Shown piece by piece: positions 13,469 through 35,971 of a stretch of DNA of 64,000 bases (its first letter is position 1; every line of letters begins with the position of its first letter). The stretch covers positions 2,686-66,685 of the forward strand of contig CAILKE010000016.1 of NCBI GenBank assembly GCA_903834765.1, read 5' to 3'. The position numbers and the translations under genes are program-made. Below the pieces are notes generated by a model. The model was not told the origin of the DNA. It did no database searches and was given only the letters and a program-made list of their open reading frames with translations. The DNA is from an uncultured Bacteroidota bacterium (GTDB lineage Bacteria; Bacteroidota; Bacteroidia; B-17B0; Aurantibacillaceae).

Positions 13469-13469
13469 T

Positions 13470-21131: not shown

Positions 21132-24130
21132 GCGAATTAAAAGAGTTTCATATAGAACAAGCTGCTATTGAATGGTTACAGCAGATGGGTTATGTTTATC
21201 AGCATGGCGCGGCTATTACACGTGATGCTCGTACTGTAGTATTGGAAGATGAGTTGATGCAATTTATTGCTAAAACTTATCCTAAGCTTCCTGCTGATAT
21301 GGTGAAAGAAGCAGCTAAAGAATTTATTAATAATGCAGGTGCTGATATGGACTACCGTAACCGTGATTTTCATTTAAAACTCACTAAGGGAATTGATATT
21401 AGTTGGAAAGATTCAAGTGGCAAAGAATCTGCTTTGCATGTATATCCAATTGATTTCGAAAATCCACAAAACAATACTTTTACTTGCGTTAATCAATTAG
21501 AGATTGTTGGGCGTAACCGTCGCATCCCTGATTTACTTATTTACATCAATGGGTTACCCTTAATTATCTTTGAATTCAAAAATTGGTTTGATTATAACAC
21601 GACTGAAAACGAAGCTTACAATCAAATACAACATTACAAACAAGACATACCTTTATTATTTGAGTACAACGCCTTAACTATTATTAGTGATGGCAAAACC
21701 GCTCAACATGGTATGTTCCCAGCTAGTATGGAATGGTACTCGCCATGGAAATCCATAAATGGTAAAGACATTGTTGATGCCAATGATTTTCAATTAAACA
21801 CCTTATTGCATGGCTTGTTTGTAAAAGAACGGTTAATCAACTACTTAAAATATTTTATTTTCTTTGAAGATCATAATGGTACTTTAATAAAAAAAGGCGC
21901 TAAGTATCATCAATACTTTGGAGTAAACTTTGCGGTTGAAAAAACCAAGCAAGCTATTAAACCAATTGGTGATGGACGTATTGGTGTGATATGGCACACA
22001 CAAGGTTCGGGCAAAAGTATTTCGATGGCAATATACACAGGTATGTTACGTCAGTTACCTGAATTAAAAAATCCAACCGTAATTATTCAAGTAGATAGAA
22101 ATGATTTGGATTGGCAGCTTTACGAAAACTTTGTATTATGTAAAGACATTGTTGGCTCTGTGCAACATGCAACCAGTACTGATGAATTAAGACGTTTATT
22201 AGATACCGACGCAGGTGGTGTTATTTTTACCACCATTGAAAAGTTTCGTTTAAAAAAGGATGATGGCGAAATCCAACATCCAGTTTTATCAAAACGTGAT
22301 AACATCATTGTAATCGCCGATGAAGCGCACCGTACACAATATGGTTTATTGGATGGCTATGCAGCTAATTTAAGAACCGCTTTACCTAACGCTTCTTTTA
22401 TTGGATTTACTGGTACACCAGTAGATAGTAAACAAGCCGATACAGAAGAGTTATTTGGAGAGGTAATACATACCTATGATATTAAACAAGCGGTTGAAGA
22501 TGGAGCAACAGTTCCAATATACTATGAGCCACGTTTAGCAAAATTGCATTTAGCAAACGAAAACATTGATGAAGAAGTTGATGAATTGCAAGAAGCCCAA
22601 GGCGACCAACAATCTTTAAAATGGGCTGCTATTGAAGATGCAGCAGGTTCATTGGATAGAGTTTCAAAAATAGCAGAAGACATTATATCGCATTTTAACA
22701 AACGTACAGGCACCTTAGAAGGTAAAGCCATGGTGGTTTGTATGAGCCGTAAAAATTGCGTGAAGATGTATGATGCTTTAAAACAAATTGAAGGTTGCCC
22801 CGAAATAGCAGTTATTATTACTGCAAACATTTCTAAAGACCCACCAGAGTGGAAAGACCACATTAGAACCAAAGACCAATTTGAGGCGATTAAAAAACGT
22901 TTCAAAAATCCTGACGACCCTTTAAAAATTGTAATTGTACGTGATATGTGGTTAACAGGCTTTGATGCGCCTATTATCAATACCATGTATGTAGATAAGG
23001 TTATGACAGGGCACAATCTAATGCAAGCTATTGCCAGGGCTAATCGTGTGTTCGCAGATAAACAATCAGGTGTTATTGTAGATTATATTGGTATCGGTGA
23101 TCAATTGAAAGCAGCCACTATGAAATACACTCAAGGTGGTGGACGTGGTGATACAAAGATTGACATCGAGCAAGCTTTAGAAATGTTCTACAATCAAGTA
23201 GAAAAATGTAAAGCTCATATACCAGATAATATTAATTATCAAAAATGGAAAGTCTTGACTACTGGTGATAAAATGATGTTGATTAATGAAGGAATGAGTG
23301 TCATTTTAAAGTCAGATCAGTTAGCCGAAGAATTCATGCAAGATGAAAAAAAGTTAACTGGTTTAGTAAGCATTGTTAAAAGTAGAGAGGAGTTGGCAGA
23401 GTTTGCTTTAGATGTAATTTACATTCAGCATGTGTCAGCAGCGGTGCGTAAAGCAAAATCAATAGTAGTCGGTAAAAAAGACAATCAAAAGAAAGTACGT
23501 GATTTAATTTCACAAAGTATAGAATCGGAGGACATCATTGATGTATTTGCCATGGCTGGTATTGCTCGTCCTGATGTATCTATATTAAATGAAGAATTTT
23601 TATTAGGCGCTAAAAAAGATAAATCGGGATTAGCTTTAAAAATTGAGTTAATGCGTAACATTTTAAAGGGTGAAATAGCTTTACGTTTAAGAAAAAACAT
23701 AAAAAAATATACTTCCTTAAAAGAAGAAATAGAAAAAGTAATTGACCTCTATCATAAAAACGCTATTGATTCTTATACTACTATCCTTGAATTAGTAGAA
23801 CGTGCTAAGGACATGCAGGAAGAAGAAAAACGCCAAAAGGAATTAGGAATCACCGATGAAGAGTTGGCTTTTTACGACATCATCAATGCTAAAAAAGAAA
23901 TCATACAAGAAGCTGGACCAATACAAAACATAGTTCATGCAGTTTGCAAAGCAGTAAAAGATAATTTAGAAATTGACTGGACGAAGAAAGAAGATGCAAA
24001 AGCAAATATTCGTTTAGCTGTTAAACGAGAACTTAGAGGAAAAGTAAGTTTAGAAGAACTCAACATCATACTACAAGAAATTATGGAACAAACAGAAGGT
24101 CAATTTAAAGATTGGCCTATTGTTGGATAA
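21128..24130 (+). CDS. hsdR: Type I restriction enzyme R subunit
   Basis: N-terminal nuclease region ('PDLLIYINGLPLIIFEFK'). Helicase motifs 'TQGSGKS' and 'DEAHRTQ'. Length and domain order are typical of HsdR. Confidence 0.95.
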   Translation: MSELKEFHIEQAAIEWLQQMGYVYQHGAAITRDARTVVLEDELMQFIAKTYPKLPADMVKEAAKEFINNAGADMDYRNRDFHLKLTKGIDISWKDSSGKESALHVYPIDFENPQNNTFTCVNQLEIVGRNRRIPDLLIYINGLPLIIFEFKNWFDYNTTENEAYNQIQHYKQDIPLLFEYNALTIISDGKTAQHGMFPASMEWYSPWKSINGKDIVDANDFQLNTLLHGLFVKERLINYLKYFIFFEDHNGTLIKKGAKYHQYFGVNFAVEKTKQAIKPIGDGRIGVIWHTQGSGKSISMAIYTGMLRQLPELKNPTVIIQVDRNDLDWQLYENFVLCKDIVGSVQHATSTDELRRLLDTDAGGVIFTTIEKFRLKKDDGEIQHPVLSKRDNIIVIADEAHRTQYGLLDGYAANLRTALPNASFIGFTGTPVDSKQADTEELFGEVIHTYDIKQAVEDGATVPIYYEPRLAKLHLANENIDEEVDELQEAQGDQQSLKWAAIEDAAGSLDRVSKIAEDIISHFNKRTGTLEGKAMVVCMSRKNCVKMYDALKQIEGCPEIAVIITANISKDPPEWKDHIRTKDQFEAIKKRFKNPDDPLKIVIVRDMWLTGFDAPIINTMYVDKVMTGHNLMQAIARANRVFADKQSGVIVDYIGIGDQLKAATMKYTQGGGRGDTKIDIEQALEMFYNQVEKCKAHIPDNINYQKWKVLTTGDKMMLINEGMSVILKSDQLAEEFMQDEKKLTGLVSIVKSREELAEFALDVIYIQHVSAAVRKAKSIVVGKKDNQKKVRDLISQSIESEDIIDVFAMAGIARPDVSILNEEFLLGAKKDKSGLALKIELMRNILKGEIALRLRKNIKKYTSLKEEIEKVIDLYHKNAIDSYTTILELVERAKDMQEEEKRQKELGITDEELAFYDIINAKKEIIQEAGPIQNIVHAVCKAVKDNLEIDWTKKEDAKANIRLAVKRELRGKVSLEELNIILQEIMEQTEGQFKDWPIVG

Positions 24131-24142
24131 AAAATATAAATT

Positions 24143-24742
24143 ATGGCAGATTGTATTAAATGTGGCGCTTACACAAAATTTAATGGTGGCTTATGTTTAA
24201 GTTGCTACAAAAAAGATACTAAAGAAGATGTTTTAGTTGAAGAGCCAAGTGGTTTAAAAGACAAAGAATGGACTTATCATTATAATATGATTAAAGGTCG
24301 TATTGCTGAAACTTTAATCCAAGAATTGTTTTTAAGTCTTAAATTTAACGTATTCCGCTATGGTATGGAAAATACTATTCCTGGTATTATGGAGTTATTA
24401 AAAGGAGTAAGAACAGATGTAGCAAAGGATATTAAAAACATGCCTGATTTTGTTGTTCAAGACCCACGAAGTAATTCAGTATATTTTGTTGAAGTAAAAT
24501 TTAGAGCAGCGGAAACATTTAAAATTTCTGATTTACCAAAAGAGTATCCTTATACAAATGCTTATATTATTGTTGTTTCCAAAAAACACATCAAATGCAT
24601 TACTGTTGAGGAATTAAAAAACGGTAAAGAAATTACACCAACTTGTAAAAACTATCTTGGTAGTCGAAAAGAATTTGATTTAGATAAGGAAGTAATTATC
24701 GATTTCTGTGATTTTGCAGTAAAGTTTTTTGAGAACGTGTAA
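24143..24742 (+). CDS. Zinc-ribbon + PD-(D/E)xK nuclease-fold protein
   Basis: 'CIKCG...CLSCY' zinc ribbon. 'PDFVVQD' ... 'VYFVEVKFR' fits the D...ExK restriction-endonuclease fold. Starts 12 nt after the hsdR stop. Confidence 0.5.
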   Translation: MADCIKCGAYTKFNGGLCLSCYKKDTKEDVLVEEPSGLKDKEWTYHYNMIKGRIAETLIQELFLSLKFNVFRYGMENTIPGIMELLKGVRTDVAKDIKNMPDFVVQDPRSNSVYFVEVKFRAAETFKISDLPKEYPYTNAYIIVVSKKHIKCITVEELKNGKEITPTCKNYLGSRKEFDLDKEVIIDFCDFAVKFFENV

Positions 24743-24843: not shown

Positions 24844-25416
24844 ATGGATGCTTCAACATATAAGGAATCAATTGATCTATATAAAAACAAATTATTAAAC
24901 CATCTTAATTCAGTAAGTTTAATAAGTCCACCTAATTTTAATTCATTTCCAATTGATTGTAGGCAGATTGACAGTTTTAAAGAAAAAAAATATAAAGCAT
25001 TAGTTGAAAAAGGTGTTTTAGATGGAGATACACCATACATTTATTACTTTAAGTTGGCTTCAAAATGTGATAAGAAAGCGCTAATAAATGAAATACAGAT
25101 ATTTAAAAGTAGTGAAGATAATAGTAAGGCTTTAAAATTACCTTTGGTTCATGGTCACTTTGATAGCGATATACTTTATGTTGGTAAATCTCAAGGTGAT
25201 TTTTTAACCAGGACTAAAGTTCATTTTGGATTTACTGGCGACAAAACTTATGGCTTACATTTAAAGAAGTGGTTTGACATTATAGGAATAAGTCCAGATC
25301 TTACACTTCAATTTTATTATGCTCCAATAGAGGTAAAAGATGAAAATTTAGTTGAATTAATTGAAAGTTCCTTACACCTTAAATTAAAACCTATATTAGG
25401 ACGTTCAGGCCACTAA
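24844..25416 (+). CDS. GIY-YIG-like nuclease-domain protein (divergent)
   Basis: 'YIYYF' ... 'ILYVGKSQGDFLTRTKVH' ... 'ELIESSLH' resemble GIY / YIG-R-H / E elements. The GIY-to-YIG spacing (~45 aa) is longer than canonical. Confidence 0.45.
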   Translation: MDASTYKESIDLYKNKLLNHLNSVSLISPPNFNSFPIDCRQIDSFKEKKYKALVEKGVLDGDTPYIYYFKLASKCDKKALINEIQIFKSSEDNSKALKLPLVHGHFDSDILYVGKSQGDFLTRTKVHFGFTGDKTYGLHLKKWFDIIGISPDLTLQFYYAPIEVKDENLVELIESSLHLKLKPILGRSGH

Positions 25417-25419
25417 AAA

Positions 25420-26556
25420 ATGTATTTTCTTACACAACAAGACCCAAACTATACCATTAAAGGCTCCCGTGACCCATTAGGGTTTCAGGTGTTGTGGCAA
25501 GCTGCTGGCCGTAAACTAATACCTCATTTATCTACAGTATCAGGAAGTATTATTGATTTTCAAATAATATCATTAGCCTTTTACATAAAAAAAGAATTTA
25601 ATATTAGTGATGAAGAATTTAATTCGTTCTTCATTAAATTAGAACAACTAATGGCTTATTCAAGATTTAAGTTAAATGAAGAGACAGGTTTTAATGGTAT
25701 CGATAAAGTAAGAAAAACATTACAATCAGGAAGTTCTACCGTTAAAATCTCAAATGCAGAACAAATACTGTCTAACCAACGTGCTTATGGTATTTGGGGT
25801 AAATACAATAGACCATTTACTGATATGCAGTTAAAGGAGAATGAAGAATTTGATAAAATTTATAAATCAAAAATTGAAAACAACTCAGAATTCTTAAACC
25901 AAATAAAAGTATTAATTAAAAAAGGAGATACTGATACTGCCTCCGTTAGTATAGAAAAACTTTCTCATTTTACAAGCTTAATTAATAAACCTACTGATAA
26001 AGAAAAAGAACTATTTATCAATAAAATTCTACAAGATAATTGTGATGACGAGTTGCTTAAAATATTTTCTAGCAATCCAGAATTAATTAAATTGGGTGGT
26101 TACGAATTGTTTGAAAAAATTAGTTCAAATTCTAATAATCAAAAATTAAAGGCGGAAATTAAGCATATTGTAAATACAGAGAAAGTATTAAGCCCTTTAA
26201 ATAGAATATTCAGGCTTTTACAAACACAGTCATTTTGGTCAAAAGAGCAAATTGATAATAATGAAAACATTTCAAAATGGAGAACTAATGTTGATTCATC
26301 AGTTTTGGATTCAACAACGAAAGAACTTTCAATATTATTGCAAAAATCAAATTGGGAATTAGTATCAGGACTTGTTAAGCGTAACGAAGAAGTATCAAAT
26401 TTAAGGAATTCAGCGGCTTGGGTTCGCTTTGCAGCAAACGGCATAGAAGTTAATCATTTTGAAGGTGCTGGTGAGTGGGAATACAACCCCGAATCTGAAA
26501 TGGATAATAATTACTTTTTATATACCTATGTTTCTTTATTTGAACAGTTAAATTAA
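25420..26556 (+). CDS. Hypothetical protein, first tightly coupled partner of the PLD/SNF2 pair
   Basis: 378-aa ORF starting 3 nt after the previous stop. N-terminal 'GSRDPLGFQVLWQAAGRKLIPHLS' looks conserved, but I cannot assign a family. Confidence 0.6.
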   Translation: MYFLTQQDPNYTIKGSRDPLGFQVLWQAAGRKLIPHLSTVSGSIIDFQIISLAFYIKKEFNISDEEFNSFFIKLEQLMAYSRFKLNEETGFNGIDKVRKTLQSGSSTVKISNAEQILSNQRAYGIWGKYNRPFTDMQLKENEEFDKIYKSKIENNSEFLNQIKVLIKKGDTDTASVSIEKLSHFTSLINKPTDKEKELFINKILQDNCDDELLKIFSSNPELIKLGGYELFEKISSNSNNQKLKAEIKHIVNTEKVLSPLNRIFRLLQTQSFWSKEQIDNNENISKWRTNVDSSVLDSTTKELSILLQKSNWELVSGLVKRNEEVSNLRNSAAWVRFAANGIEVNHFEGAGEWEYNPESEMDNNYFLYTYVSLFEQLN

Positions 26557-26557
26557 A

Positions 26558-28549
26558 GTGGAGAAATTTATATTAAAAGAGAAGCTTAAAGAGCAAATTG
26601 ACAATAGGAAAGTTATTGCATCATTGTTCTATACTTTTAATTTTGATCCTAAGTTTTTTGAAAATTACATCATGCCTTTACTTATCCCAAAAGAAAAAAG
26701 TGAAAAATTTAGAGATGAAGTAATACATAATAAAATATTATGGAGGCAATATATTAAAGACGACATAATACCCCCTACAGCTGTATTCTGCGATTATTTC
26801 GCAAAAGATAATACAGAGGCACCATCATTAGGATATGACATACATTGTATTAGAACGCCTGCTGCACAGGGTAAAATATGTAATTTTCATCCAAAACATA
26901 TTTTTTTATTAGTTGAAGATGCTTCTAATACGTCATTAATTGTAGTTACAGGTTCTGGTAATATCACACCAAGTGGTTGGTGTGATAATATAGAATGCTT
27001 TTCAATAGAAGAATATAAGAAAAATAAAACTTTCCCAAATAAGACAACAACAAACATATTTCAAGACATAATAATTCAAACAGGGAAGCTAGCCAACTTA
27101 AAATTTTATTTGCCTGCTGAGGAGTTAATTAATGACTTTTTAAAATATGTTGATTATGAATTTCAATATTTTAATAGCACTGTTACTTCTTTTGAAGACT
27201 TTATAACTGAAAATATTTTATTAAAAGATACTATAACTGAAATTGAAATTGTATCTCCATATTTTAGTAATGATACTAAGTTAGTTTCACATTTAATGAG
27301 TAAGGGGATTAAAACAATCAAATGTTTAGTCCCAACATTAAAGGATAATGAAATACAAATTAATAAAGAAACCTTTGATACTTTAAGTGTTTCTGGTTTA
27401 AAATGGTCATTTTGGTCTGATTCGAAAATTAATAAAGAAGTAAGAAACTTGCATGCTAAAATATACAGGTTGCATGGTGAAAAGTATATTTATACAATTA
27501 TAGGTTCAGTGAACTTCACCAATCCTGCATGGAAAAAATTTGAGCAAAAAAATAACGAGGCCAATATTGAATCAGCCTATCTTTATAAAGAAAAAATGGC
27601 TATTAAATTATTAAAAGAGGCTAAAAATATTGATTTTAGCACCTATAATTTTATACCTAAAGAAAGTTTAGAAAACCAAATTGAAAATTTATTTAATCGA
27701 AATCCTCCTGATATAAGCTTTGAGATTGATTGGAAAAATAAATTAATTAAATACGAAGGCAAGAAAATAAATTCTGAATGTTTTTTCACTTCTTTGCTTG
27801 ATAAAAAAGTAATCACAACAGGTAAGCATGAGTATACTTTAAATAGCCAAGATTTAAAATCTCTTTCTAAGAATAGTTTAATTGAAGTTACTTTAATTAA
27901 TAACGGTAATACCGAATTTTATAGTTTTTATCCAACACAACTAAATTTTGAGTTCAAGCCACTAGATTTTAAAATTGATGCTTCAACAATTTTAAAATAT
28001 TGGCAATTTTTAGAAGATGAATTCCAAAAGGAAGGATTATTAAGTTTACTTATTGAGAGAATAACTGATGAATCAGGTATTGTGCATGAAGATAGAATTG
28101 AAAAAGTTTCTATTCTTAATGAAATGGCAACACATTTTAGCGCACTAATTAAACTAGAAGAATTTTTATTTTATAAAAAACTAACTTCTAAAACAGCTCA
28201 AAAGGAACATTTCAACTTTTTAAAGTATTACCTTTTATCTGAAAACATTGATACTATATCTTTCTACCTTGCAGATCTAGAAACCCAATTTCAAAACAAT
28301 AAAATTTACAAAACATTTTATTGGATGATTTTACAAATAATAATTAACAACTTTTATTTAAAGGCTGAAAAATGGGATTTCAAAAAGGAAATTGATAATA
28401 AAGAATGGAATGTTTTTAAAATCGACTTAAAACAAAAGCAAGAAACATTATCAATTTTAGCAAAAAATATTTCTAAAGAGCTTTCTGATGAAAATATAAA
28501 TCAGAAACTAGAGTGGGTAATAGAAAAATTAAAGGAAAATCATGAGTAA
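26558..28549 (+). CDS. PLD-superfamily protein with two HKD-like motifs plus ~330-aa unknown C-terminal region
   Basis: Motif 1 'FHPKHIFLL...VVTGSGNIT' (H111/K113, nt 26888..). Motif 2 'LHAKIYRLHGEKYIYTIIGSVNFT' (H299/K301, nt 27452..). GTG start 1 nt after the upstream stop. Confidence 0.75.
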   Translation: MEKFILKEKLKEQIDNRKVIASLFYTFNFDPKFFENYIMPLLIPKEKSEKFRDEVIHNKILWRQYIKDDIIPPTAVFCDYFAKDNTEAPSLGYDIHCIRTPAAQGKICNFHPKHIFLLVEDASNTSLIVVTGSGNITPSGWCDNIECFSIEEYKKNKTFPNKTTTNIFQDIIIQTGKLANLKFYLPAEELINDFLKYVDYEFQYFNSTVTSFEDFITENILLKDTITEIEIVSPYFSNDTKLVSHLMSKGIKTIKCLVPTLKDNEIQINKETFDTLSVSGLKWSFWSDSKINKEVRNLHAKIYRLHGEKYIYTIIGSVNFTNPAWKKFEQKNNEANIESAYLYKEKMAIKLLKEAKNIDFSTYNFIPKESLENQIENLFNRNPPDISFEIDWKNKLIKYEGKKINSECFFTSLLDKKVITTGKHEYTLNSQDLKSLSKNSLIEVTLINNGNTEFYSFYPTQLNFEFKPLDFKIDASTILKYWQFLEDEFQKEGLLSLLIERITDESGIVHEDRIEKVSILNEMATHFSALIKLEEFLFYKKLTSKTAQKEHFNFLKYYLLSENIDTISFYLADLETQFQNNKIYKTFYWMILQIIINNFYLKAEKWDFKKEIDNKEWNVFKIDLKQKQETLSILAKNISKELSDENINQKLEWVIEKLKENHE

Positions 28550-31500
28550 TTTAAAGGAAGATATAAATAACATTCTTAGATTACGAACCAATGATTCAAT
28601 TGGTAAAGAATTGGCTGAACGCCAATTTGAAGTTATTATGAGATCATTTGAATACCTCAATAAGCCTGAAAACAATATTATTTACATTGCTGATGAAGTA
28701 GGATTAGGAAAAACATATATAGCCGCTGGTATAGCTATGTTATTTCGTCATTTTAGTTCAGACATTAATAATCATAAAGATTTAATTATTGTACCAAAGA
28801 AGAACTTGCAATTTAAATGGAAAAAAGAACTGAATAATTTTATAAAATTTAATTACGTTGTAGAAAGTGATTCAATAAAAAAATTAGATTTTGAAAGTTG
28901 TATTAAGGATAAATTATTTGGCGTAAAATCAGAGGATCCAATAACAATTTTCAGAATGACTTCCTTTAGTAGCATAACATCTTCTGCAACAAATGAGAGA
29001 GCAAAACATTACAATCATTTGGTATATGTAGTTTTTGAAGAAGATGAATATTGTGAGGAAATTTTACTCGAAGCGTGGAATTTGAAATATTTTGAAAAAG
29101 ATAATCAACATAAATTGAGAAAGTTAATTGCTTATTTATTTAATGTAATTTCTTCAAAAGTTGATTGTTTAATAATTGATGAAGCTCATAATTACAAATA
29201 TGGCATTGGAAATGATTTTCACGATTCATCAATTAGAAACGAAGTAACAGCAAGATTTTTAGGGGCAGTTGATGATAAATCAATAATTAATGATTTTTCT
29301 AAATATAATTTACGTGGTAAAATCAAATTCCCTCTAGCAAATAAGACAATTTGTTTATCAGCAACCCCAAAAGACAGAAATTTACTTGAAATTAGAAATC
29401 AATTAAATTGCTTTGCTAAAACACATGTACTATCTGATTGTAAAGAAAGTAATGATATTAAAGAAAAATTAAAATCGTTTTTAATAAGAGGTAATTTAGA
29501 ATACAATTTAACCTCACGTGAAATACCTTTTTCAAGAAATGAATGTAGAGAAGAACACAGAAAAGGTAACGTTAATAAAATTGGTGAGGCAAAAAGATTA
29601 ATTGTTGAAGATAATTTTGAAAGTGTGTTTTGGCAGCTTTTACAATATAAATCAATCAAACATTTAGATCAAAAAAACAATAAGTCATTTGAAATAGGAA
29701 TGCTTGCTGGCTTTGAAAGCTACCAATTAGACACAGATAAAGTAAGAGCTACTAATGATGAAGTTGAAAACGAATCGTATAGCGATGAAAGTAAAGAGTA
29801 CGAACAAACCTCAAGCAGGAAACATAAAGAAAGTCAGGATATAAATATTGTAAAAGACATAGTTGATTCATACGTTGAACGATTTAAAAAAGAACCTCCA
29901 CCGCATCCAAAACAAAGTAAACTTGAGGAAGAGATAGTTAATCAACTATCTAGGCAAGAAAAATCATTAATCTTTGTAAGAAGGGTTGCTACTGCTTACG
30001 AATTAGAAAAACGCTTAATTCATTTATACGAAAATAAAGTTATTAAGGATAAGCATTTAAAGTTCACAGGTAAATATTCAAAATTTAACAGTCAAAAACT
30101 GAATGATTTACTTTCTGAATTTGATGAAAAACATATTGCTGAAAAGCTTGATGATGTTTTTAGATTAATTGATAATCGTTTAAATGTTCAGCAAATAATA
30201 CATTATAAATTACCCGACGAGAGTTTTCATTTACCTATAAATTCTTTAACTCTGTTACATAGAACATATAGTAATCCCAAAAACTCTGTATTTAAAGATT
30301 ATATTAAAAAATTCATCATTAAGAATTCTAAAAATATACTCGATGATTCAAAAAGTTTGATTATCAGTTCAATCGAAAGTACCCTCATTGACTATCTAAA
30401 TGAAATCAATGAAAACGATGGGATTGAAATAGAAATCAATGAATTTGATAACGCTGGAGATGAAAACTTTAAATATTTTTTTAGCGACTATTTTAAGGAA
30501 AATAAAAATGGATTCTTTTTTAGAACCAAGATGTATAGAGAGAATTGGTTTGATTTTAATTTGTGCCTAATTAATCAGTACTTCGATTTATTTAAATACA
30601 ATTCGCAACTATTGAAAATTGATATTGATAAAATTACTTTTGACGATAAGAAAAAGAAACATCAAAAATTCAATGATTATCAAGATGCGTATAAAAAATT
30701 TATAATATCAAATATTATTGCTGGTTCAGCTCAAAATGAAACCCAAGCAATTGAGCAATTAACTATCAATACTTTTCTTACAGATATTTTAATTAATCAT
30801 TGTTTTGCAGAATTTTATAATTGGATTGAGAAACATAATAACTCAGAAGCAGCGAGAGTTTTTGAGGATTTACAATTACTAAATGTATTATTAAAATGTG
30901 TTTTCAGAACTGGCAGTGGCTTACTACCAGCATTTGTTGCTGATTCAAGCGAAGGTGATTTCTCAGCAAATTTAGTAGAGTTAATTACTTTGGTAGATTC
31001 TCCATTTTATTATATGTTAAATGAAATTAAAACCATAATAAATGATTTTGATTTAATTATTGCAGTGAATTTTCAGGACAAAGATGAACGCAAAATCATA
31101 AGTACATTCAAAAATTTATCGCCAATCATTGGCACTAGTGGTCAAGATAAAAGAGATAGAGGTATTTTAGCAAATCAATTTAGAATGCCAGGCTATCCCT
31201 ACGTATTGGTAACAACAGATATTTTTCGTGAAGGAGAAGATTTACATACCTATTGCCAAAATATTTACCATTACGGTATAGCATGGAATCCTAGTGATAT
31301 GGAACAAAGAACAGGTCGTATCGATAGAATTAATTCATTAAGTTATAGAAGACTAAATCAAACTAATGATGTTAGTTTTAATAATAAAATTCATGTCTTT
31401 TATCCTTATTTAACCCAATCCGTTGAAGTAAATCAAGTTGCTAAATTGCTTACCAACATGAATATTTTTATTGAAGACTTTAATGAAATTGATAAAACGA

Positions 31501-31613
31501 ATAGTTATGAATCAAGCGTAAATACTAATGAAGAAATAACCGAAAAAGATATGCCAGAAGCAATTAAAAAAAGATTAATATCAAAATATGATATTCACGA
31601 TTTTATGGTTTAG
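28542..31613 (+). CDS. SNF2/SF2-family helicase-like ATPase
   Basis: 'ADEVGLGKTYIAAG' (motif I), 'IIDEAHNYK' (II), 'LSATP' (III), 'LVTTDIFREGEDLH' (V), 'QRTGRIDRINS' (VI). 8-nt overlap with the PLD gene. Confidence 0.85.
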   Translation: MSNLKEDINNILRLRTNDSIGKELAERQFEVIMRSFEYLNKPENNIIYIADEVGLGKTYIAAGIAMLFRHFSSDINNHKDLIIVPKKNLQFKWKKELNNFIKFNYVVESDSIKKLDFESCIKDKLFGVKSEDPITIFRMTSFSSITSSATNERAKHYNHLVYVVFEEDEYCEEILLEAWNLKYFEKDNQHKLRKLIAYLFNVISSKVDCLIIDEAHNYKYGIGNDFHDSSIRNEVTARFLGAVDDKSIINDFSKYNLRGKIKFPLANKTICLSATPKDRNLLEIRNQLNCFAKTHVLSDCKESNDIKEKLKSFLIRGNLEYNLTSREIPFSRNECREEHRKGNVNKIGEAKRLIVEDNFESVFWQLLQYKSIKHLDQKNNKSFEIGMLAGFESYQLDTDKVRATNDEVENESYSDESKEYEQTSSRKHKESQDINIVKDIVDSYVERFKKEPPPHPKQSKLEEEIVNQLSRQEKSLIFVRRVATAYELEKRLIHLYENKVIKDKHLKFTGKYSKFNSQKLNDLLSEFDEKHIAEKLDDVFRLIDNRLNVQQIIHYKLPDESFHLPINSLTLLHRTYSNPKNSVFKDYIKKFIIKNSKNILDDSKSLIISSIESTLIDYLNEINENDGIEIEINEFDNAGDENFKYFFSDYFKENKNGFFFRTKMYRENWFDFNLCLINQYFDLFKYNSQLLKIDIDKITFDDKKKKHQKFNDYQDAYKKFIISNIIAGSAQNETQAIEQLTINTFLTDILINHCFAEFYNWIEKHNNSEAARVFEDLQLLNVLLKCVFRTGSGLLPAFVADSSEGDFSANLVELITLVDSPFYYMLNEIKTIINDFDLIIAVNFQDKDERKIISTFKNLSPIIGTSGQDKRDRGILANQFRMPGYPYVLVTTDIFREGEDLHTYCQNIYHYGIAWNPSDMEQRTGRIDRINSLSYRRLNQTNDVSFNNKIHVFYPYLTQSVEVNQVAKLLTNMNIFIEDFNEIDKTNSYESSVNTNEEITEKDMPEAIKKRLISKYDIHDFMV

Positions 31614-31641: not shown

Positions 31642-32106
31642 TTATTTCATCGTATTACTTTTATTTCCAATTAAATAATCACCGAAAAAATAGTTGCACA
31701 ATTCCGCGCGGATGACCTTAATTTTTAAATCATCATGCAAATGATCTATATCCTCAAACAATAAAGCTTCACTATCCTTTGTATTAAAAAGGTCTTTCAA
31801 CTTATTAATTTTACTAATGTAAAAAGAATCATTTTTGAATTTTTGATAAGCATTAGCACCTTTTATACTAATTGTTATTAGTTGGGGTTGGTTGGGAAAT
31901 TGGGACGGATTAATTTGTATTAATCCGTCAGCTACTAAATCATCAAATAGTTCATTTAATGTTATTGGGTCTGTCAATTGATTTTTTAAGACCTTTAATA
32001 TAGATTTTTCATCATATTGAATAATATCATTGTATTTCGCATGTTCCTCAAATAGGGTCTTAATTATTAGATAGGCGTCTACACTACTTTGTACTATAGT
32101 TCTCAT
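31642..32106 (-). CDS. Hypothetical protein
   Basis: 154-aa ORF downstream of and co-directional with the serine recombinase; no motif. Confidence 0.45.
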   Translation of the reverse strand: MRTIVQSSVDAYLIIKTLFEEHAKYNDIIQYDEKSILKVLKNQLTDPITLNELFDDLVADGLIQINPSQFPNQPQLITISIKGANAYQKFKNDSFYISKINKLKDLFNTKDSEALLFEDIDHLHDDLKIKVIRAELCNYFFGDYLIGNKSNTMK

Positions 32107-32179
32107 TGTTAATCTATTAAAATCCTTATGAAGATAATAATTATTCTTATATCTTTTGAAGTGATTAATACCCGCGCTT

Positions 32180-32881
32180 TTAATGGCTCAAAGGAGCAGT
32201 ATTATACTCGGTTAAAAGTTTCGTTAAACTATATCTTTGTACTAATCGTTTAACTTGTTGGGGTTTAAAGTCCATGCCATTTATAGTTTTAGTTTTTAAC
32301 TTATTTAATTCATTAGATATAGCTAAGTAGTTTACTTGTTTTGTTTTCAGTATTATATTTTCTATGGATAGTACAATGTTTTTATTTTTATAACTATAAA
32401 GCTTTTTAGTGGCATTTGCCCCTTCGCTTCTTCCTTTTGTGCTAAAATTTCTAGTGCCTATTTTAGTAAACTCCCAATTATTTTCAGCCCTTAATTTATC
32501 CATTGTTTGTTTTATACGGTTACGTGTTACCGTAACCTCATTTTCGTACACAACGCTTAATATCTGTAAAGTAAACCGATCTATATTTTGATTCTCAACA
32601 AAAATGATATTTATAGATGAATCATATATCTGTTGTATAGTTGAACTCTTGCGCCCTAAACGGTCAATTGATTTACAAATCAGAGTTGCATTATTCTTTT
32701 TACAATAATCAATTGCTCTTAACAATTCTTTTCTGTTATCTTTTCTGCCGCTTATTTGTTCAATAAATTTCTGTTCAATGATATATTTATTGAGAGCAAA
32801 AGATGTGATAATGTTTTCTTGAATTACAAGACTATTATCCTGTCGCTTAGTCGATGTTCTAATATATGCTACTGCTTTCAT
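32180..32881 (-). CDS. Small serine recombinase (resolvase/invertase family)
   Basis: 'AVAYIRTSTKRQ' (catalytic Ser region), 'LICKSIDRLGRK', 'E..R..IKQ'-like 'TVTRNRIKQTMD'. 233 aa with a C-terminal helix region. Confidence 0.85.
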   Translation of the reverse strand: MKAVAYIRTSTKRQDNSLVIQENIITSFALNKYIIEQKFIEQISGRKDNRKELLRAIDYCKKNNATLICKSIDRLGRKSSTIQQIYDSSINIIFVENQNIDRFTLQILSVVYENEVTVTRNRIKQTMDKLRAENNWEFTKIGTRNFSTKGRSEGANATKKLYSYKNKNIVLSIENIILKTKQVNYLAISNELNKLKTKTINGMDFKPQQVKRLVQRYSLTKLLTEYNTAPLSH

Positions 32882-32929
32882 GCTATAAATATTTATGATT
32901 TATAGCTAATGTACTAAAAGCTTTATATG

Positions 32930-32967
32930 CTTAACACAGCTAAGTCAACTGACTTAGCTGTGTTAAG
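32930..32967. promoter_or_regulatory. Perfect 18-bp inverted repeat (2-nt spacer) in the divergent promoter region of the serine recombinase
   Basis: cttaacacagctaagtca-ac-tgacttagctgtgttaag. Lies 49 nt upstream of the recombinase start and 34 nt upstream of the 33001 ORF. Confidence 0.6.
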
Positions 32968-33000
32968 AAAGGCCAGAATATACAATTCATTGCATTTAAA

Positions 33001-33714
33001 ATGGTTAACTTCGTAACTATGAATTGGGAAAGTAAATACGATGAATACGTTTTAAAGATGTCAGAAGAATATTTTGAAGAGAGATTTGAAATACGTCAGG
33101 ATGTCCCCTTTGAATTTGTTTACAAATACGAAAACATTAGAGAGTTTTTAAATGACAATAAAACAAACTTTTTGAATTTTATAGTATCTGATCCACTATC
33201 AGCCTTTCGAAATCTACAGTCACAATTACCAATTCTAGCAGAGCATTTAATATACTGTGCACATAAAGAGCAATCACTAAGTGAAAAAGACTTCTGTAAA
33301 TGCTTTCTGCGGATATACTTATATGCAGCAAAAGGGAAAACATTGTTTAAGCATTTAATTAGTTATTCAGAATTGGTTGAAATATTTAGTACCTATAATT
33401 TTAAATCTATTATGGATACTGATGAGAAAAAACAATTTGAAAAACTGCAAACAAGTGTGGCATTATTTCGAGGGTCAGCGGGAATTGATTTTGATGAAGC
33501 AAAGAAAGGTATTAGTTGGTCCTTAAATTATGATAGAGCAGAAGAATTTGCTCTGTATGATAGAGATTACTTTAATGCTAATTCTGCCATTGTTATTGAC
33601 GCAACTATCTCAAAGAAAGACATCCTAGTTTTTTCCAATCTACGAGGGGAATATGAAGTTATTATTAATCCTGATGAATTAAGAAATATACGTTTTAGAG
33701 ACCTAGGTCGTTGA
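33001..33714 (+). CDS. Hypothetical protein; weak R-S-E ADP-ribosyltransferase-like motif set
   Basis: 'LFRGS' (R157), 'ISWSLNYDRAEEFA' (S172-x-S174), 'GEYEVIINP' (E217-x-E219). The order fits the ART R/STS/ExE pattern, but the R-to-S spacing is short. Confidence 0.5.
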   Translation: MVNFVTMNWESKYDEYVLKMSEEYFEERFEIRQDVPFEFVYKYENIREFLNDNKTNFLNFIVSDPLSAFRNLQSQLPILAEHLIYCAHKEQSLSEKDFCKCFLRIYLYAAKGKTLFKHLISYSELVEIFSTYNFKSIMDTDEKKQFEKLQTSVALFRGSAGIDFDEAKKGISWSLNYDRAEEFALYDRDYFNANSAIVIDATISKKDILVFSNLRGEYEVIINPDELRNIRFRDLGR

Positions 33715-33808
33715 GCACAGTTAAGTAATTAATACGACAACACTTATTTTTAAATAACTATTGACATTTTACCTAGATTAACTATATTTAATTAAAACAA
33801 TAGATATT

Positions 33809-34576
33809 ATGAAAATTTCAAACGACATAAAAACAGAAATGGATGCATTAATTGCTAATAATATAGGATTTAACGAAATGTACCAAGAGCTCCAATTGAA
33901 GTATACTATTACGGTAGGTGAAATTACTCTAATAGGAGAAAGTCAGGGAACAATCCCTTGTTGGACTTGTAAGATAAACCAAAATGAAATTACGATAGAA
34001 TCTCCGCTAGCAAGCAGAGATATTGAGTCATTTGTTCATGAATTATTGCATGGTATTTTAGACTCAAAAGGCTTTTCTGAAACTAAAATTGTATTAAATT
34101 GGATCAACAAGCTGCCGCACCCTATCCCGTTTTTATTAGGGGAGCCCAATTTACTTGGCCACATTAATAATTCACTGGCACATGAAAAAATGTATCCGTA
34201 TTATGATGCGCATGGGTTTAATCCTGAAAATTTCGTACTTGATTATGCGCTTTGTCCGGTGCAAGATGCCTATATGGATTGTATAAATTCGGATTTTTAC
34301 AACGCTGGATTGCCCAACGATGCAATTGGTGTTTATATCGGTCAATTTATTGCATGTAGATATTGTTTGAACGATACTTTTTTACCGCAGATTAGAGAAT
34401 GTCTGAATACTCTTCATACTATTAATAATGATCTATATGATTTATGTGAAGAATTTTTAGTTGAATGGAGTACTATTCCTGAAAGGCATAATTTAGCACA
34501 TATCATAAGATTTGCCTATAAAGTTCGTGATTGGTATAATACTAATAAAGGCCTTTTTATAAATGGGATTTCGTAA
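33809..34576 (+). CDS. Hypothetical protein with HExxH motif (possible metallopeptidase)
   Basis: 'FVHELLHGILD' is the only recognisable motif. Confidence 0.45.
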   Translation: MKISNDIKTEMDALIANNIGFNEMYQELQLKYTITVGEITLIGESQGTIPCWTCKINQNEITIESPLASRDIESFVHELLHGILDSKGFSETKIVLNWINKLPHPIPFLLGEPNLLGHINNSLAHEKMYPYYDAHGFNPENFVLDYALCPVQDAYMDCINSDFYNAGLPNDAIGVYIGQFIACRYCLNDTFLPQIRECLNTLHTINNDLYDLCEEFLVEWSTIPERHNLAHIIRFAYKVRDWYNTNKGLFINGIS

Positions 34577-34645
34577 ATAATGAAAATTACCCCCATATAA
34601 TAGAACAAAATTTATCAGAGGTATATAAAGTAAAACTTAATACCA

Positions 34646-35971
34646 ATGATAAAATTCCTACCAAAAAACCTAGACTTAAAACATTTATTAGCCGAACACC
34701 CACCAGAGTTCAAATATCATATTGATCACTTTGTACATCTTTGTAGCTTATTGTATGAATTACCAGCAAAGAAGAAAGGTGCTCTAAATGAAGGAGGTTA
34801 TGTTTCTTTAAATGCTCACATGTTAAAGAAAGTAAATAACAATTATAAGAAGTATTTTAATTATTTAATTCAGCATGGTGTAATAGAATGTGATAATTCA
34901 TACATCGTTGGCAAGAAAAGTAAAAGTTACCGCTATGCCCCAAAATACCAGGATATAATACAACCTACTTATATTACTAAGTATACTTTAACTAAAAACT
35001 TAAAAGAAATACACAGGTTTAACAGAGACATGTATGCTAAATATAATTATTTGTATAAATGGTTTGATGATGGGCTATGTGTAGATTTTGAAAAAGCAGA
35101 ACAAAAGCTGATTGAACTATATCAAAAGAATAAAGAAGCAGGAGAGAAGAACGCCCTACATAAACTGAATGTTAATTTAGTAAACCTAATTAAGCTACAA
35201 AAGAAGGATTTCTATTTCACTGTAGATTCAACATCTAAAAGATTACATACCTTACTTACTAAAATAAAAAAGGATTTAAGAGAGTACATTACATTTGATA
35301 ATAAAAAGTTAAGTAATATCGACATACAATGTTCTCAACCAACATTATCATTGTGTTTATTAGAACCATCATTTTATAATACAGAATTAAAGCAGGAGCG
35401 TGTCACTATAAATTCTATAGACCCACAGCTAACAGATAAACTGCCGATACAAGCTATTACTAAATATGTAACAGCTAATCAAGATAAATTTGACAGCTAC
35501 CGTAAATTAGTGTTTGATGATTTATATGTCGGTATGGCTGAGATTTTAAAAAGTAAATCCGTTAATATTGCCACTGACAGAGATAGTTTAAAAGATATGA
35601 TGTATATGGTACTATACTCTAGTAATAAGTTTTTAAACGGCAACCAAGGACTACCTAAACGTATTTTTAAAGAACTGTTTCCTGAAGTGTACGAAGTATT
35701 TAAAATGTATAAATCAGCAGGACAAGAAAACCTACCAATACTACTACAAAAAATTGAAGCTGTATTGATATTAGAAAAGGCCGCTAAAACAATAGCAAAA
35801 GCTCAACCCGGCATGCCACTTTTTACAATCCACGATTCTATAGTCTGCCCGACTGATAAAACTGAATTTTGTAAAAATATTATTGTATCAGAAGCTATTA
35901 AGTATTTAGGTTTTGAGCCCAAACTTAAGATTGATCTGTGGGCTGAACCCACAGAGAAGAAGGGGGGTTAG
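34646..35971 (+). CDS. Compact family-A / T7-RNAP-like polymerase-fold protein (motifs A, B, C present; no exonuclease domain)
   Basis: 'SKRLHT' (cf. TGRLSS). Motif A 'NIDIQCSQPTL' (D226, nt 35321). 'DLYVGMAEIL' (cf. DIHTATA). Motif B 'RDSLKDMMYMVLYSS' (cf. RxxxKxxxxxxxYG). Motif C 'FTIHDSIV' (nt 35831..35839). Confidence 0.55.
   Translation: MIKFLPKNLDLKHLLAEHPPEFKYHIDHFVHLCSLLYELPAKKKGALNEGGYVSLNAHMLKKVNNNYKKYFNYLIQHGVIECDNSYIVGKKSKSYRYAPKYQDIIQPTYITKYTLTKNLKEIHRFNRDMYAKYNYLYKWFDDGLCVDFEKAEQKLIELYQKNKEAGEKNALHKLNVNLVNLIKLQKKDFYFTVDSTSKRLHTLLTKIKKDLREYITFDNKKLSNIDIQCSQPTLSLCLLEPSFYNTELKQERVTINSIDPQLTDKLPIQAITKYVTANQDKFDSYRKLVFDDLYVGMAEILKSKSVNIATDRDSLKDMMYMVLYSSNKFLNGNQGLPKRIFKELFPEVYEVFKMYKSAGQENLPILLQKIEAVLILEKAAKTIAKAQPGMPLFTIHDSIVCPTDKTEFCKNIIVSEAIKYLGFEPKLKIDLWAEPTEKKGG

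What the first reader, a model, noticed from the sequence alone, without database searches (positions are those of the whole stretch)
24844..31613. Candidate undescribed four-gene defence cluster: GIY-YIG-like + unknown 378-aa protein + double-HKD PLD + SNF2 helicase
The four genes are packed at 3-nt, 1-nt and -8-nt spacing after a 101-nt gap, so they likely form one transcription unit. (1) A 190-aa protein has GIY-YIG-like elements with an unusually long insert. (2) A 378-aa protein has no recognisable domain but a conserved-looking N-terminus ('GSRDPLGFQVLWQAAGRKLIPHLS'). (3) A 663-aa protein has two HxK...GSxN motifs (HPKHIFLL...GSGNIT; HAKIYRLH...GSVNFT), both lacking the canonical Asp, plus ~330 aa of unknown sequence. 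(4) A 1023-aa SNF2-type ATPase has a complete motif set (I, II, III, V, VI). PLD + SNF2 recalls DISARM DrmC/DrmD and other helicase+PLD systems, but there is no DUF1998 protein, no DrmA-type helicase and no dedicated methyltransferase in the cluster. I cannot match the combination to a named system. It sits in a defence island directly after a type I R-M/Mokosh operon, which is the strongest guilt-by-association context available.
Basis: inference. Interest (0 to 1): 0.8.

Follow-up and report, generated by a model that had tools for sequence, protein, structure and literature searches.

The report
Azaca-like PLD–helicase defence module (PDC-M27)
The cluster is real, but three of its four genes are a widespread nuclease-helicase module that PADLOC already lists as the untested defence candidate PDC-M27 (built like the Azaca system), and the small GIY-YIG gene is an optional add-on found only in this lineage.

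Summary
The four ORFs, their spacing (101, 3, 1 and -8 nt) and the stated motifs are all present. The cluster is not undescribed. PADLOC models PDC-M27A, B and C hit the 378-, 663- and 1023-aa proteins (3e-16, 3.5e-29, 3.8e-59). The next-best hits are Azaca ZacB/ZacC and DISARM DrmC/DrmD. This A-B-C triad is colinear in 63 of 65 and 53 of 55 related loci with enough contig, across many phyla. Non-Bacteroidota loci add a fourth ~125-aa gene D, which the window lacks.

- **A (378 aa):** an all-alpha protein with no solved structural relative. It has an invariant N-terminal KGSRDPLG peptide and no detectable similarity to ZacA/DUF6361.
- **B (663 aa):** a Tdp1-like double HxK...SxN (HKN) PLD fold, followed by a beta-sandwich and a helical domain.
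- **C (1023 aa):** a Swi2/Snf2-type ATPase.
- **190-aa gene:** a divergent GIY-YIG family member. It lies next to the triad in only 4 of 81 loci. Elsewhere it trails type I R-M and other defence operons.

Most likely function is an ATP-dependent, Azaca-like DNA-degrading complex without a cognate methylase. PDC-M27 is unpublished and untested, so moderate interest remains.

The parts
25420..26556 (+). Subunit A (378 aa), PDC-M27A family. An all-alpha protein of unknown fold.
   Evidence: PADLOC PDC-M27A 3.3e-16. All 25 diverse homologues hit PDC-M27A; none hit ZacA or Pfam DUF6361. AF2 pLDDT 89.3, helical. No Foldseek match in PDB or BFVD. 788 representative clusters at E<=1e-3.
25441..25560 (+). 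Invariant N-terminal segment of A (residues 8-47: D8, K14-G15-S16-x-D18-P19-L20, Q23, W26-Q27, P35, S38-T39-V40-S41, D46-F47).
   Evidence: These are invariant columns in alignment A1; a subset also stays invariant in A2, which adds R17 and G21. Residues 1-16 are predicted disordered (pLDDT <50). I infer that this segment docks into a partner.
26558..28549 (+). Subunit B (663 aa), PDC-M27B. A single-chain double-HKN PLD-superfamily nuclease (residues ~1-360), a beta-sandwich (~385-462) and a helical C-terminal domain (~475-660).
   Evidence: PADLOC PDC-M27B 3.5e-29, ZacB 1e-13, DrmC 2e-6. Pfam PLDc_2 on residues 223-338. AF2 pLDDT 87.7. Foldseek best hits are human Tdp1 at 4e-10, then PPK1, PLD1/2/3 and SauUSI.
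26885..26995 (+). First HxK...SxN motif of B (F110-H111-P112-K113 ... S133-x-N135 ... E146).
   Evidence: Conserved in at least 90% of 60 homologues. Invariant in alignment A4.
27443..27571 (+). Second HxK...GSxN motif of B (R296, H299-x-K301, G316-S317-x-N319, N336-x-E338).
28542..31613 (+). Subunit C (1023 aa), PDC-M27C. A Swi2/Snf2-type SF2 ATPase with large insertions.
   Evidence: PADLOC PDC-M27C 3.8e-59, ZacC 2.4e-21, DrmD 8.4e-21. Pfam Helicase_C, ResIII, DEAD; SNF2-rel_dom falls below its cut-off. The family profile hits RapA at 8e-8, plus SNF2H and ISWI, in PDB.
28683..28718 (+). Helicase motif I / Walker A of C (Y48 ... G54-L55-G56-K57-T58).
   Evidence: Invariant in 18 to 53 homologues.
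29178..29198 (+). Helicase motif II / Walker B of C (D213-E214-A215-H216-N217).
31206..31328 (+). Helicase motifs V-VI of C (L889 ... T892-D893 ... E897-G898-E899-D900-L901-H902 ... Q922-R923-x-G925-R926-x-D928-R929).
24844..25416 (+). Lineage-specific accessory gene: a 190-aa divergent GIY-YIG-family protein (core at residues ~95-190, extra N-terminal domain at 1-95).
   Evidence: Only 26 homologues were found. 17 of 25 hit PF01541. Invariant residues are Y112, G114, K115, R123, H127, E171, E174, H178. It lies beside the triad only in the window, L001, L095 and L022. Between the window and L001 its amino-acid identity is 39%, against 93-95% for A-C.

Best explanation
Genes 25420-31613 are a three-subunit nuclease-translocase module of the PADLOC candidate family PDC-M27. 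It is built like Azaca (ZacABC).

Proposed working (inferred, not shown):
- C, a Swi2/Snf2-type ATPase, binds and translocates on double-stranded DNA using ATP.
- C delivers or licenses B. B is a single-chain PLD-superfamily nuclease whose two HxK...SxN half-sites form one active site, and it would cut DNA through a covalent phospho-histidine intermediate.
- A is an all-alpha protein with an invariant, probably partner-docking N-terminal peptide. It would be an obligatory structural, regulatory or sensing subunit.
- No methyltransferase is conserved with the module. Self versus non-self is therefore most likely decided by a feature of the invader's DNA (hypermodified bases, ends or replication intermediates). 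This is type-IV-like, as reported for Azaca with phage T4 DNA.

The upstream 190-aa GIY-YIG gene is not part of the family-wide core. It is a promiscuous accessory that trails various defence operons. In this lineage it has become linked, at 3-nt spacing, to the 5' end of the module.
For: Identity:
- PDC-M27A/B/C hit genes 2-4 in order.
- 25 of 25 diverse gene-2 homologues hit PDC-M27A.

Unit:
- A-B adjacency holds in 63 of 65 loci and A-B-C in 53 of 55 loci with enough contig. These span Bacteroidota, Planctomycetota, Acidobacteriota, Myxococcota, Proteobacteria, Actinomycetota and Parcubacteria.
- The block shared with L001 at 91% nucleotide identity runs in effect from the ATG of gene 2 to 3 codons before the stop of gene 4. 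The flanks are unrelated.

Catalytic competence: both HKN sites and helicase motifs I-VI are conserved at 90% or more.

Folds:
- B is Tdp1-like PLD; SauUSI is also among its matches.
- C is RapA/ISWI-like.

Defence context:
- In the window the module follows type I R-M plus MkoA/MkoB-like genes.
- The nearest neighbours in 72 loci hit many PADLOC families (REase_I, ZorD, HmaA, DrmD, BrxH, DpdE) with no constant partner and no constant methylase.
- GC dips to 27-28% over 24-32 kb.
- A resolvase gene lies just downstream.

Analogy: in BmAzaca all three proteins and the ZacC Walker A motif are needed to cleave T4 DNA (bioRxiv 10.1101/2025.07.10.664194).
Against: - PDC-M27 is an unpublished bioinformatic candidate (PMC11811056). 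No paper in the library mentions it, so anti-phage activity is not shown for any member.
- Subunit A has no detectable similarity to ZacA/DUF6361. The Azaca analogy therefore rests on B, C and architecture only.
- C scores about as well against DrmD as against ZacC.
- No complex, DNA binding or cleavage could be tested here.
- PADLOC's own system-level rules and DefenseFinder were not run; only the HMMs were.
- In the window's lineage the GIY-YIG gene is constantly present (3 of 3 contexts), so it may be functionally required there.
Confidence: 0.6

Rival explanations
1. A genuine four-gene system. The GIY-YIG protein would be an integral fourth subunit, for example a second nuclease, at least in this Bacteroidota lineage.
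For: - The GIY-YIG gene sits at 3-nt spacing before gene 2 in the window, L001 and L095, behind three different upstream genes: the 199-aa gene that follows HsdR (101-nt gap), a Card1-like gene, and a type ISP enzyme.
- L001 and L095 share an 83% DNA block that starts 36 nt into the GIY-YIG gene and runs through gene 4.
- A homologue also precedes the triad in a distant Kordia locus, L022.
- L008 has another GIY-YIG gene just after gene 4.
Against: - About 76 of 80 related loci have no such gene.
- The window's allele is only 39% identical to L001's, while A-C are 93-95% identical.
- Homologues end other operons with no triad nearby: HsdM-HsdS-206 aa-8xMP, an SF1 helicase, a PD-(D/E)xK partner, or standing alone.
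- The window protein itself does not reach any GIY-YIG model.
Confidence: 0.2
2. A genome-integrity or abortive type of nuclease-helicase, like Hachiman. The complex would survey DNA and, once triggered by phage-induced damage or a phage protein, degrade all DNA including the host's.
For: - It has nuclease-helicase architecture and no methylase partner.
- Hachiman works this way (PMC12278908, listed).
Against: Nothing here tests this directly. The closest experimentally studied relative by HMM, Azaca, showed a preference for T4 DNA in vitro rather than indiscriminate cleavage.
Confidence: 0.15
3. A DISARM- or R-M-like restriction module that relies on methylation supplied in trans by the neighbouring type I R-M system.
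For: - Type I hsdM/S/R genes lie beside the triad in the window and in 9 of 80 loci.
- C resembles DrmD and B resembles DrmC.
Against: - About 70 loci have no adjacent type I system.
- Neighbours vary widely.
- DrmA, DrmB and DrmMI/II are absent.
- The near-identical triad in L001 and the related one in L095 sit next to Mokosh/Card1 and a type ISP enzyme instead.
Confidence: 0.08
4. Not defence at all. The module would be a DNA-repair unit in which a Tdp1-like phosphodiesterase removes protein-DNA adducts with help from a Snf2 remodeller.
For: The best structural matches of B are Tdp1, with the same HKN (no Asp) signature. A few homologues carry PF06087.
Against: - Distribution across phyla is patchy and looks horizontally transferred.
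- The near-identical module sits in different defence-island contexts.
- The top Tdp1 rank may simply reflect that Tdp1 is a single-chain two-domain PLD, so the whole fold aligns. This is my reading and was not tested.
- SauUSI, a restriction enzyme, also matches.
Confidence: 0.05

Closest known systems
PADLOC-DB v2 candidate system PDC-M27 (PDC-M27A/B/C)
   Same: All three proteins hit the three PDC-M27 models as their best PADLOC match, in A-B-C order. 25 of 25 diverse A homologues hit PDC-M27A.
   Different: - Scores are modest (57, 100 and 199 bits), so the window belongs to a divergent Bacteroidota branch.
- This branch lacks the ~125-aa gene D that follows C in 28 non-Bacteroidota loci.
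- PDC systems are unpublished and unvalidated candidates.
Azaca (ZacA DUF6361, ZacB PLD nuclease, ZacC SF2 helicase)
   Same: - The composition is the same: an unknown protein, a PLD nuclease and a large SF2 helicase.
- ZacB (1e-13) and ZacC (2.4e-21) are the best hits among experimentally studied systems.
- ZacB and ZacC model lengths (586 and 1019) are close to B and C.
   Different: - A shows no similarity to ZacA or Pfam DUF6361 in 46 family members.
- B and C score far lower against Zac models than against PDC-M27 models.
- Phage specificity is unknown.
DISARM (DrmD SNF2 helicase, DrmC PLD, DrmA, DrmB, DrmMI/MII)
   Same: - C hits DrmD models (8.4e-21; NCBIfam DrmD at 78 bits).
- B hits DrmC (2e-6).
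   Different: - No DrmA-type helicase, DUF1998 protein or methyltransferase is conserved with the triad.
- The NCBIfam DrmD score is far below its cut-off (78 against 610).
Tdp1 and SauUSI (solved PLD-superfamily structures)
   Same: - Residues ~1-360 of B adopt the two-domain PLD fold, with HxK...N half-sites lacking the Asp, as in Tdp1 (Foldseek 4e-10).
- SauUSI, an ATP-dependent PLD-helicase restriction enzyme, also matches (7e-5).
   Different: - Only 11-13% sequence identity, and no sequence-level PDB hit.
- B has extra beta-sandwich and helical domains.
- The helicase is a separate polypeptide, unlike in SauUSI.

Membership tests
PDC-M27 (PADLOC candidate) | The protein matches the PDC-M27A model | tested here: met
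   3.3e-16 for the window protein. 25 of 25 homologues match, best 5.8e-29.
PDC-M27 (PADLOC candidate) | The proteins match the PDC-M27B and PDC-M27C models, adjacent and colinear with A | tested here: met
   3.5e-29 and 3.8e-59, each the best PADLOC hit. Spacing is 1 nt and -8 nt.
PDC-M27 (PADLOC candidate) | PADLOC's own system-level rule (gene counts, distances, score thresholds) is passed | not testable with these tools
   Only the HMM library was available, not the PADLOC system definitions.
Azaca | A ZacA / DUF6361 protein is present | tested here: not met
   No ZacA (PADLOC) or DUF6361 (Pfam) hit for the window protein or for 45 homologues, at E up to 0.01-1. Remote or structural homology could not be tested, because no ZacA sequence or model was on hand.
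Azaca | A ZacB-type PLD nuclease is present | tested here: inconclusive
   ZacB 1e-13 (49 bits) over residues 105-357, but PDC-M27B scores 100 bits.
Azaca | A ZacC-type SF2 helicase is present | tested here: inconclusive
   ZacC 2.4e-21 (74 bits), about equal to DrmD (72 bits) and far below PDC-M27C (199 bits).
DISARM | DrmA helicase, DrmB (DUF1998) and a DrmMI/MII methyltransferase lie in the operon | tested here: not met
   None is present in the window cluster. No such gene recurs in the flanks of 80 related loci.
PLD superfamily, HKN (Tdp1-like) type | Two HxK half-sites with a downstream Asn, on the two-domain PLD fold | tested here: met
   H111/K113/N135 and H299/K301/N319 are invariant. 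Pfam PLDc_2 9.9e-10. AF2 model plus Foldseek gives Tdp1 at 4e-10.
Swi2/Snf2 ATPases | SF2 motifs I-VI, with closest relatives among Snf2 proteins | tested here: met
   The motifs are conserved. The family profile hits RapA at 8e-8, plus SNF2H and ISWI. Pfam SNF2-rel_dom scores only 22 bits against a cut-off of 24.9.
GIY-YIG nucleases (190-aa protein) | The protein matches a GIY-YIG domain model and keeps the catalytic Tyr, Arg and Glu | tested here: inconclusive
   The window protein has no hit at E<=1. 17 of 25 homologues hit PF01541 (best 7.3e-6) and 5 hit GIY_YIG_2. Y112, R123, H127, E171 and E174 are invariant. No PDB sequence hit.

The most novel reading that the evidence does not exclude
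PDC-M27 is a mechanistically distinct, still uncharacterised nuclease-helicase immune system.
- Its A subunit has a fold with no solved relative and an invariant KGSRDPLG N-terminal peptide. A would be the specificity or sensor element, not a ZacA homologue.
- Small GIY-YIG 'trailer' proteins would be exchangeable accessory nucleases that plug into unrelated defence operons: type I R-M, type ISP, SF1-helicase systems and PDC-M27.
- Gene D or the GIY-YIG gene would be alternative fourth components in different clades.
Probability: 0.3. Interest if true: 0.6.

Novelty: new member of a known kind. Interest (0 to 1): 0.4.

Why it matters
If validated, PDC-M27 would add a widespread system (788 clusters of subunit A at 50% identity, across many phyla) to the nuclease-helicase class of phage defences.

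- It would give a second, independent example next to Azaca of a three-part PLD/SF2 machine, with a different third subunit. That helps in asking what the enigmatic third subunit does.
- The Tdp1-like HKN active site and the extra domains of B are concrete handles for biochemistry.
- The GIY-YIG 'trailer' family hints at shared accessory modules between unrelated defence operons.

For genome annotation the practical message is that this is a catalogued candidate, not a new discovery.

Tried and rejected
- **ZacA/DUF6361 homology of gene 2.** hmmscan of 46 family members against Pfam and PADLOC found nothing. A direct profile or structure comparison was impossible, because no ZacA sequence was available.
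- **Structural relatives of gene 2.** Foldseek against PDB and BFVD gave only noise, best E 0.6-1. The profile against PDB sequences also gave noise.
- **Sequence search of genes 3 and 4 against PDB.** No hits. Only the gene-4 family profile reached RapA/ISWI.
- **Plasmid collection.** tblastn with genes 2 and 3 found no match.
- **IMG/VR.** Only 2 contigs carry the ABCD form, and none carries the GIY-YIG family.
- **Metagenome scan for the GIY-YIG family.** Only 3 short loci.
- **Literature.** 'PDC-M27' appears in no paper in the library.
- **Promoter and terminator scan of 24.0-32.3 kb.** Fewer promoter-like sites than in shuffles and no terminator after gene 4. The scan is uninformative for an AT-rich Bacteroidota genome whose promoter type the tool does not cover. 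The 'one transcription unit' idea rests on spacing only.
- **Gene D.** Considered as a cryptic GIY-YIG or as fused into the window's proteins. Rejected by HMM searches. Its profile has no PDB, Pfam or PADLOC hit.
- **GIY-YIG gene simply belonging to the upstream operon.** I first thought so, because its partner, the 199-aa gene, is paired with a homologue in L088. L095 and the L001/L095 DNA block showed that it also travels with the triad, so I settled on 'promiscuous accessory'.


Full report
**Observation**

The four ORFs exist exactly as described. They are 24844-25416 (190 aa), 25420-26556 (378 aa), 26558-28549 (663 aa, GTG start) and 28542-31613 (1023 aa), all on the + strand. A 101-nt gap precedes the first, and the spacings between them are 3 nt, 1 nt and an 8-nt overlap. 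They end a long run of co-directional genes that starts at 11858. A convergent gene follows at 31642. GC falls to 27-28% over 24-32 kb, against 31-35% around it.

**What the genes match**

PADLOC-DB models give PDC-M27A (3.3e-16) for the 378-aa protein. For the 663-aa protein they give PDC-M27B (3.5e-29), then ZacB (1e-13) and DrmC (2e-6). For the 1023-aa protein they give PDC-M27C (3.8e-59), then ZacC (2.4e-21) and DrmD (8.4e-21).

Pfam sees only PLDc_2 (residues 223-338) in the 663-aa protein. In the 1023-aa protein it sees Helicase_C, ResIII and DEAD, plus a sub-threshold SNF2 domain. NCBIfam gives only far-sub-threshold DrmD and DpdE hits.

The name is a candidate name only. PDC-x systems are described as unpublished candidates of Payne et al. 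(PMC11811056), and no paper in the library mentions PDC-M27.

**The conserved unit**

Homologues of the 378-aa protein number 288 in the word-indexed search and 788 representative clusters in the exhaustive search. I fetched 80 genome loci.

- The PLD gene follows directly in 63 of 65 loci that have room, and the helicase in 53 of 55.
- The two exceptions, L052 and L076, hold only ~60-aa remnants of gene A.
- The loci come from Bacteroidota, Planctomycetota, Acidobacteriota, Myxococcota, Proteobacteria, Actinomycetota, Chloroflexota, Parcubacteria and others.
- There are two architectures. Bacteroidota loci, including the window, have A-B-C.
- In 28 non-Bacteroidota loci and two IMG/VR contigs, a ~125-aa gene D overlaps the stop codon of C. 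D has no Pfam, PADLOC or PDB match and is absent from the window in all six frames.
- No methyltransferase or other gene recurs with the triad. Type I hsdM/S/R lie beside it in 9 loci. The 124 nearest neighbours in 72 loci hit hundreds of different PADLOC families, including type I REase, ZorD, HmaA, DrmD, BrxH and DpdE. The module is a free-standing resident of defence islands.
- Between the window and L001 (a Bacteroidia MAG), the block of 91% nucleotide identity runs in effect from the ATG of A to three codons before the stop of C. Everything outside it is unrelated.

**The 190-aa gene**

It has only 26 detectable homologues.

- 17 of 25 hit Pfam GIY-YIG (best 7.3e-6) and 5 hit GIY_YIG_2. 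The window protein itself hits nothing.
- Y112, G114, K115, R123, H127, E171, E174 and H178 are invariant. This fits the YIG strand plus the Arg and Glu of GIY-YIG enzymes; the assignment is from general knowledge, not tested.
- A canonical GIY-YIG protein (L008, 132 aa) aligns its GIY strand to residues ~97-103, ten residues before 'ILYVGKS'. The 'long insert' is more simply an extra N-terminal domain (residues 1-95).
- An HMM of the family finds it beside the triad only in L001, L022 (upstream) and L095. L008 has a different GIY-YIG gene just after C.
- Elsewhere homologues are the last gene of other defence operons:
  - after HsdM-HsdS-206 aa-8xMP membrane protein;
  - after a 255/208/181-aa trio;
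  - after an HsdR-like protein plus SF1 helicase;
  - before a small PLD protein;
  - alone beside SIR2;
  - in L088, after a 203-aa protein that is 73% identical to the window's 199-aa ORF at 24143-24742, with no triad nearby.
- Within the window's own lineage it always precedes A at 3 nt, behind three different upstream genes. L001 and L095 share an 83% DNA block that begins 36 nt into the GIY-YIG gene. The window carries a different allele, 39% identical, while A-C are 93-95% identical.

I therefore read it as a promiscuous accessory gene that is linked to the triad in this lineage. It is not a defining member of the system.

**Anatomy of the three core proteins**

- **A.** The AF2 model is confident (pLDDT 89.3, pTM 0.85) and almost entirely helical. 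The first 16 residues are disordered, and the most conserved segment of the family begins within them (D8, K14-G15-S16-x-D18-P19-L20) and continues through Q23, W26-Q27, P35, S38-T39-V40-S41 and D46-F47. Foldseek finds nothing in PDB or BFVD.
- **B.** The AF2 model (pLDDT 87.7) shows a two-lobed PLD fold in residues ~1-360, a beta-sandwich at ~385-462 and a helical domain at ~475-660. The best matches are human Tdp1 (4e-10), then PPK1, PLD1/2/3 and the ATP-dependent restriction enzyme SauUSI. Both half-sites (H111-x-K113...S133-x-N135 and H299-x-K301...G316-S317-x-N319) are invariant.
- **C.** It keeps all SF2 motifs. As a family profile it is closest to RapA, SNF2H and ISWI.

**Mechanism**

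I propose that A, B and C form an ATP-dependent DNA-degrading complex of the Azaca type. Every step of this is inferred.

- C translocates on DNA and licenses B, which cuts through a phospho-histidine intermediate. A is an obligatory adaptor or sensor.
- The only experimental anchor is the work on BmAzaca. There ZacA, ZacB and ZacC are all required to cleave T4 DNA, the ZacC Walker A motif is required, and mutations of conserved ZacA residues had no in vitro effect (bioRxiv 10.1101/2025.07.10.664194).
- Because no methylase travels with the module, I favour recognition of an invader-specific DNA feature, which is type-IV-like.
- The rivals are a true four-gene system in this lineage, a Hachiman-like trigger-and-degrade mode, dependence on neighbouring type I methylation, and a Tdp1-like repair role. 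They are listed with their tests.

**Comparison and membership**

- The cluster passes the HMM features of PDC-M27.
- It fails the ZacA/DUF6361 feature of Azaca and matches ZacB and ZacC only weakly. It works like Azaca by architecture but is not a member by the tests I could run.
- It lacks the defining DrmA, DrmB and methylase genes of DISARM.

**Novelty and score**

The window holds a new, divergent Bacteroidota member (ABC form, with a GIY-YIG add-on) of a family that is already catalogued as a candidate but has never been published on or tested. That is useful but not surprising, so I score interest at 0.4. The remaining novelty lies in three things: subunit A, which has no solved structural relative and no link to ZacA; the alternative fourth components (D or GIY-YIG); and the GIY-YIG 'trailer' family shared among unrelated defence operons.

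**Limits**

No ZacA sequence could be obtained. Promoter and terminator scans were uninformative.

Noticed in passing
window 24143-24742 (+): A 199-aa ORF lies between hsdR and the GIY-YIG gene. It has an N-terminal CxxC...CxxC zinc-ribbon-like motif and a 'DFVV...FVEVK' PD-(D/E)xK-like motif, with a weak VRR_NUC hit (0.023). A 73%-identical homologue sits 2 nt upstream of a GIY-YIG homologue in L088/L089, with no PDC-M27 nearby. The two small nuclease-like genes may form their own pair.
   Followed up: partly
window 11858-24130 (+): A composite upstream operon. Type I hsdM (11858), hsdS (15512) and hsdR (21128) are interleaved with three other genes:
- a GHKL/HATPase_c_3 protein (13470);
- a protein-kinase plus SF1-helicase fusion that hits MkoA at 8e-150 (16693);
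- a 458-aa protein with only a weak MkoB hit (3.5e-13) and no Pfam PLD domain (19755).

This is an unusual R-M/Mokosh mosaic.
   Followed up: partly
L038-L080 (e.g. L080:16788-17189), L093, L094: A conserved fourth gene D (~125 aa) overlaps the stop codon of the helicase gene in 28 non-Bacteroidota PDC-M27 loci and in 2 IMG/VR contigs. It has no Pfam, PADLOC or PDB match. None of the PDC-M27 models that came up in these searches corresponds to it.
   Followed up: partly
P0122 contig, L090:5853-7598, L084:6825-8579: A recurrent three-gene 'trailer' follows type I hsdM-hsdS or stands alone. It consists of a ~206-aa unknown protein, a ~180-aa membrane protein (weak 8xMP) and a GIY-YIG homologue, with overlapping stop and start codons.
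   Followed up: no
L052:10001-10183, L076:10001-10240: Only ~60-aa N-terminal remnants of gene A (73-79% identical) remain, with no B or C. In L052 the remnant follows the same 1618-aa protein that L008-L010 carry intact upstream of the triad (its L009 homologue hits PDC-S37/Hhe); in L076 it follows a 2717-aa ORF. These look like decayed copies of the module.
   Followed up: no
window 31642-35971: Directly downstream lie a convergent 154-aa ORF, a serine resolvase/invertase (32180-32881, -) and three ORFs (237, 255 and 441 aa) with no Pfam or PADLOC hit. Together with the GC dip at 24-32 kb, this suggests an island boundary or a mobile cassette.
   Followed up: no
L086:8001-9306: In Cytophaga aurantiaca, a GIY-YIG homologue is followed after 44 nt by a 239-aa single-HKD PLD protein with C-terminal zinc-ribbon motifs. 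The pair sits in a TIR / PDDEXK_4 island. This is another GIY-YIG plus PLD pairing.
   Followed up: no
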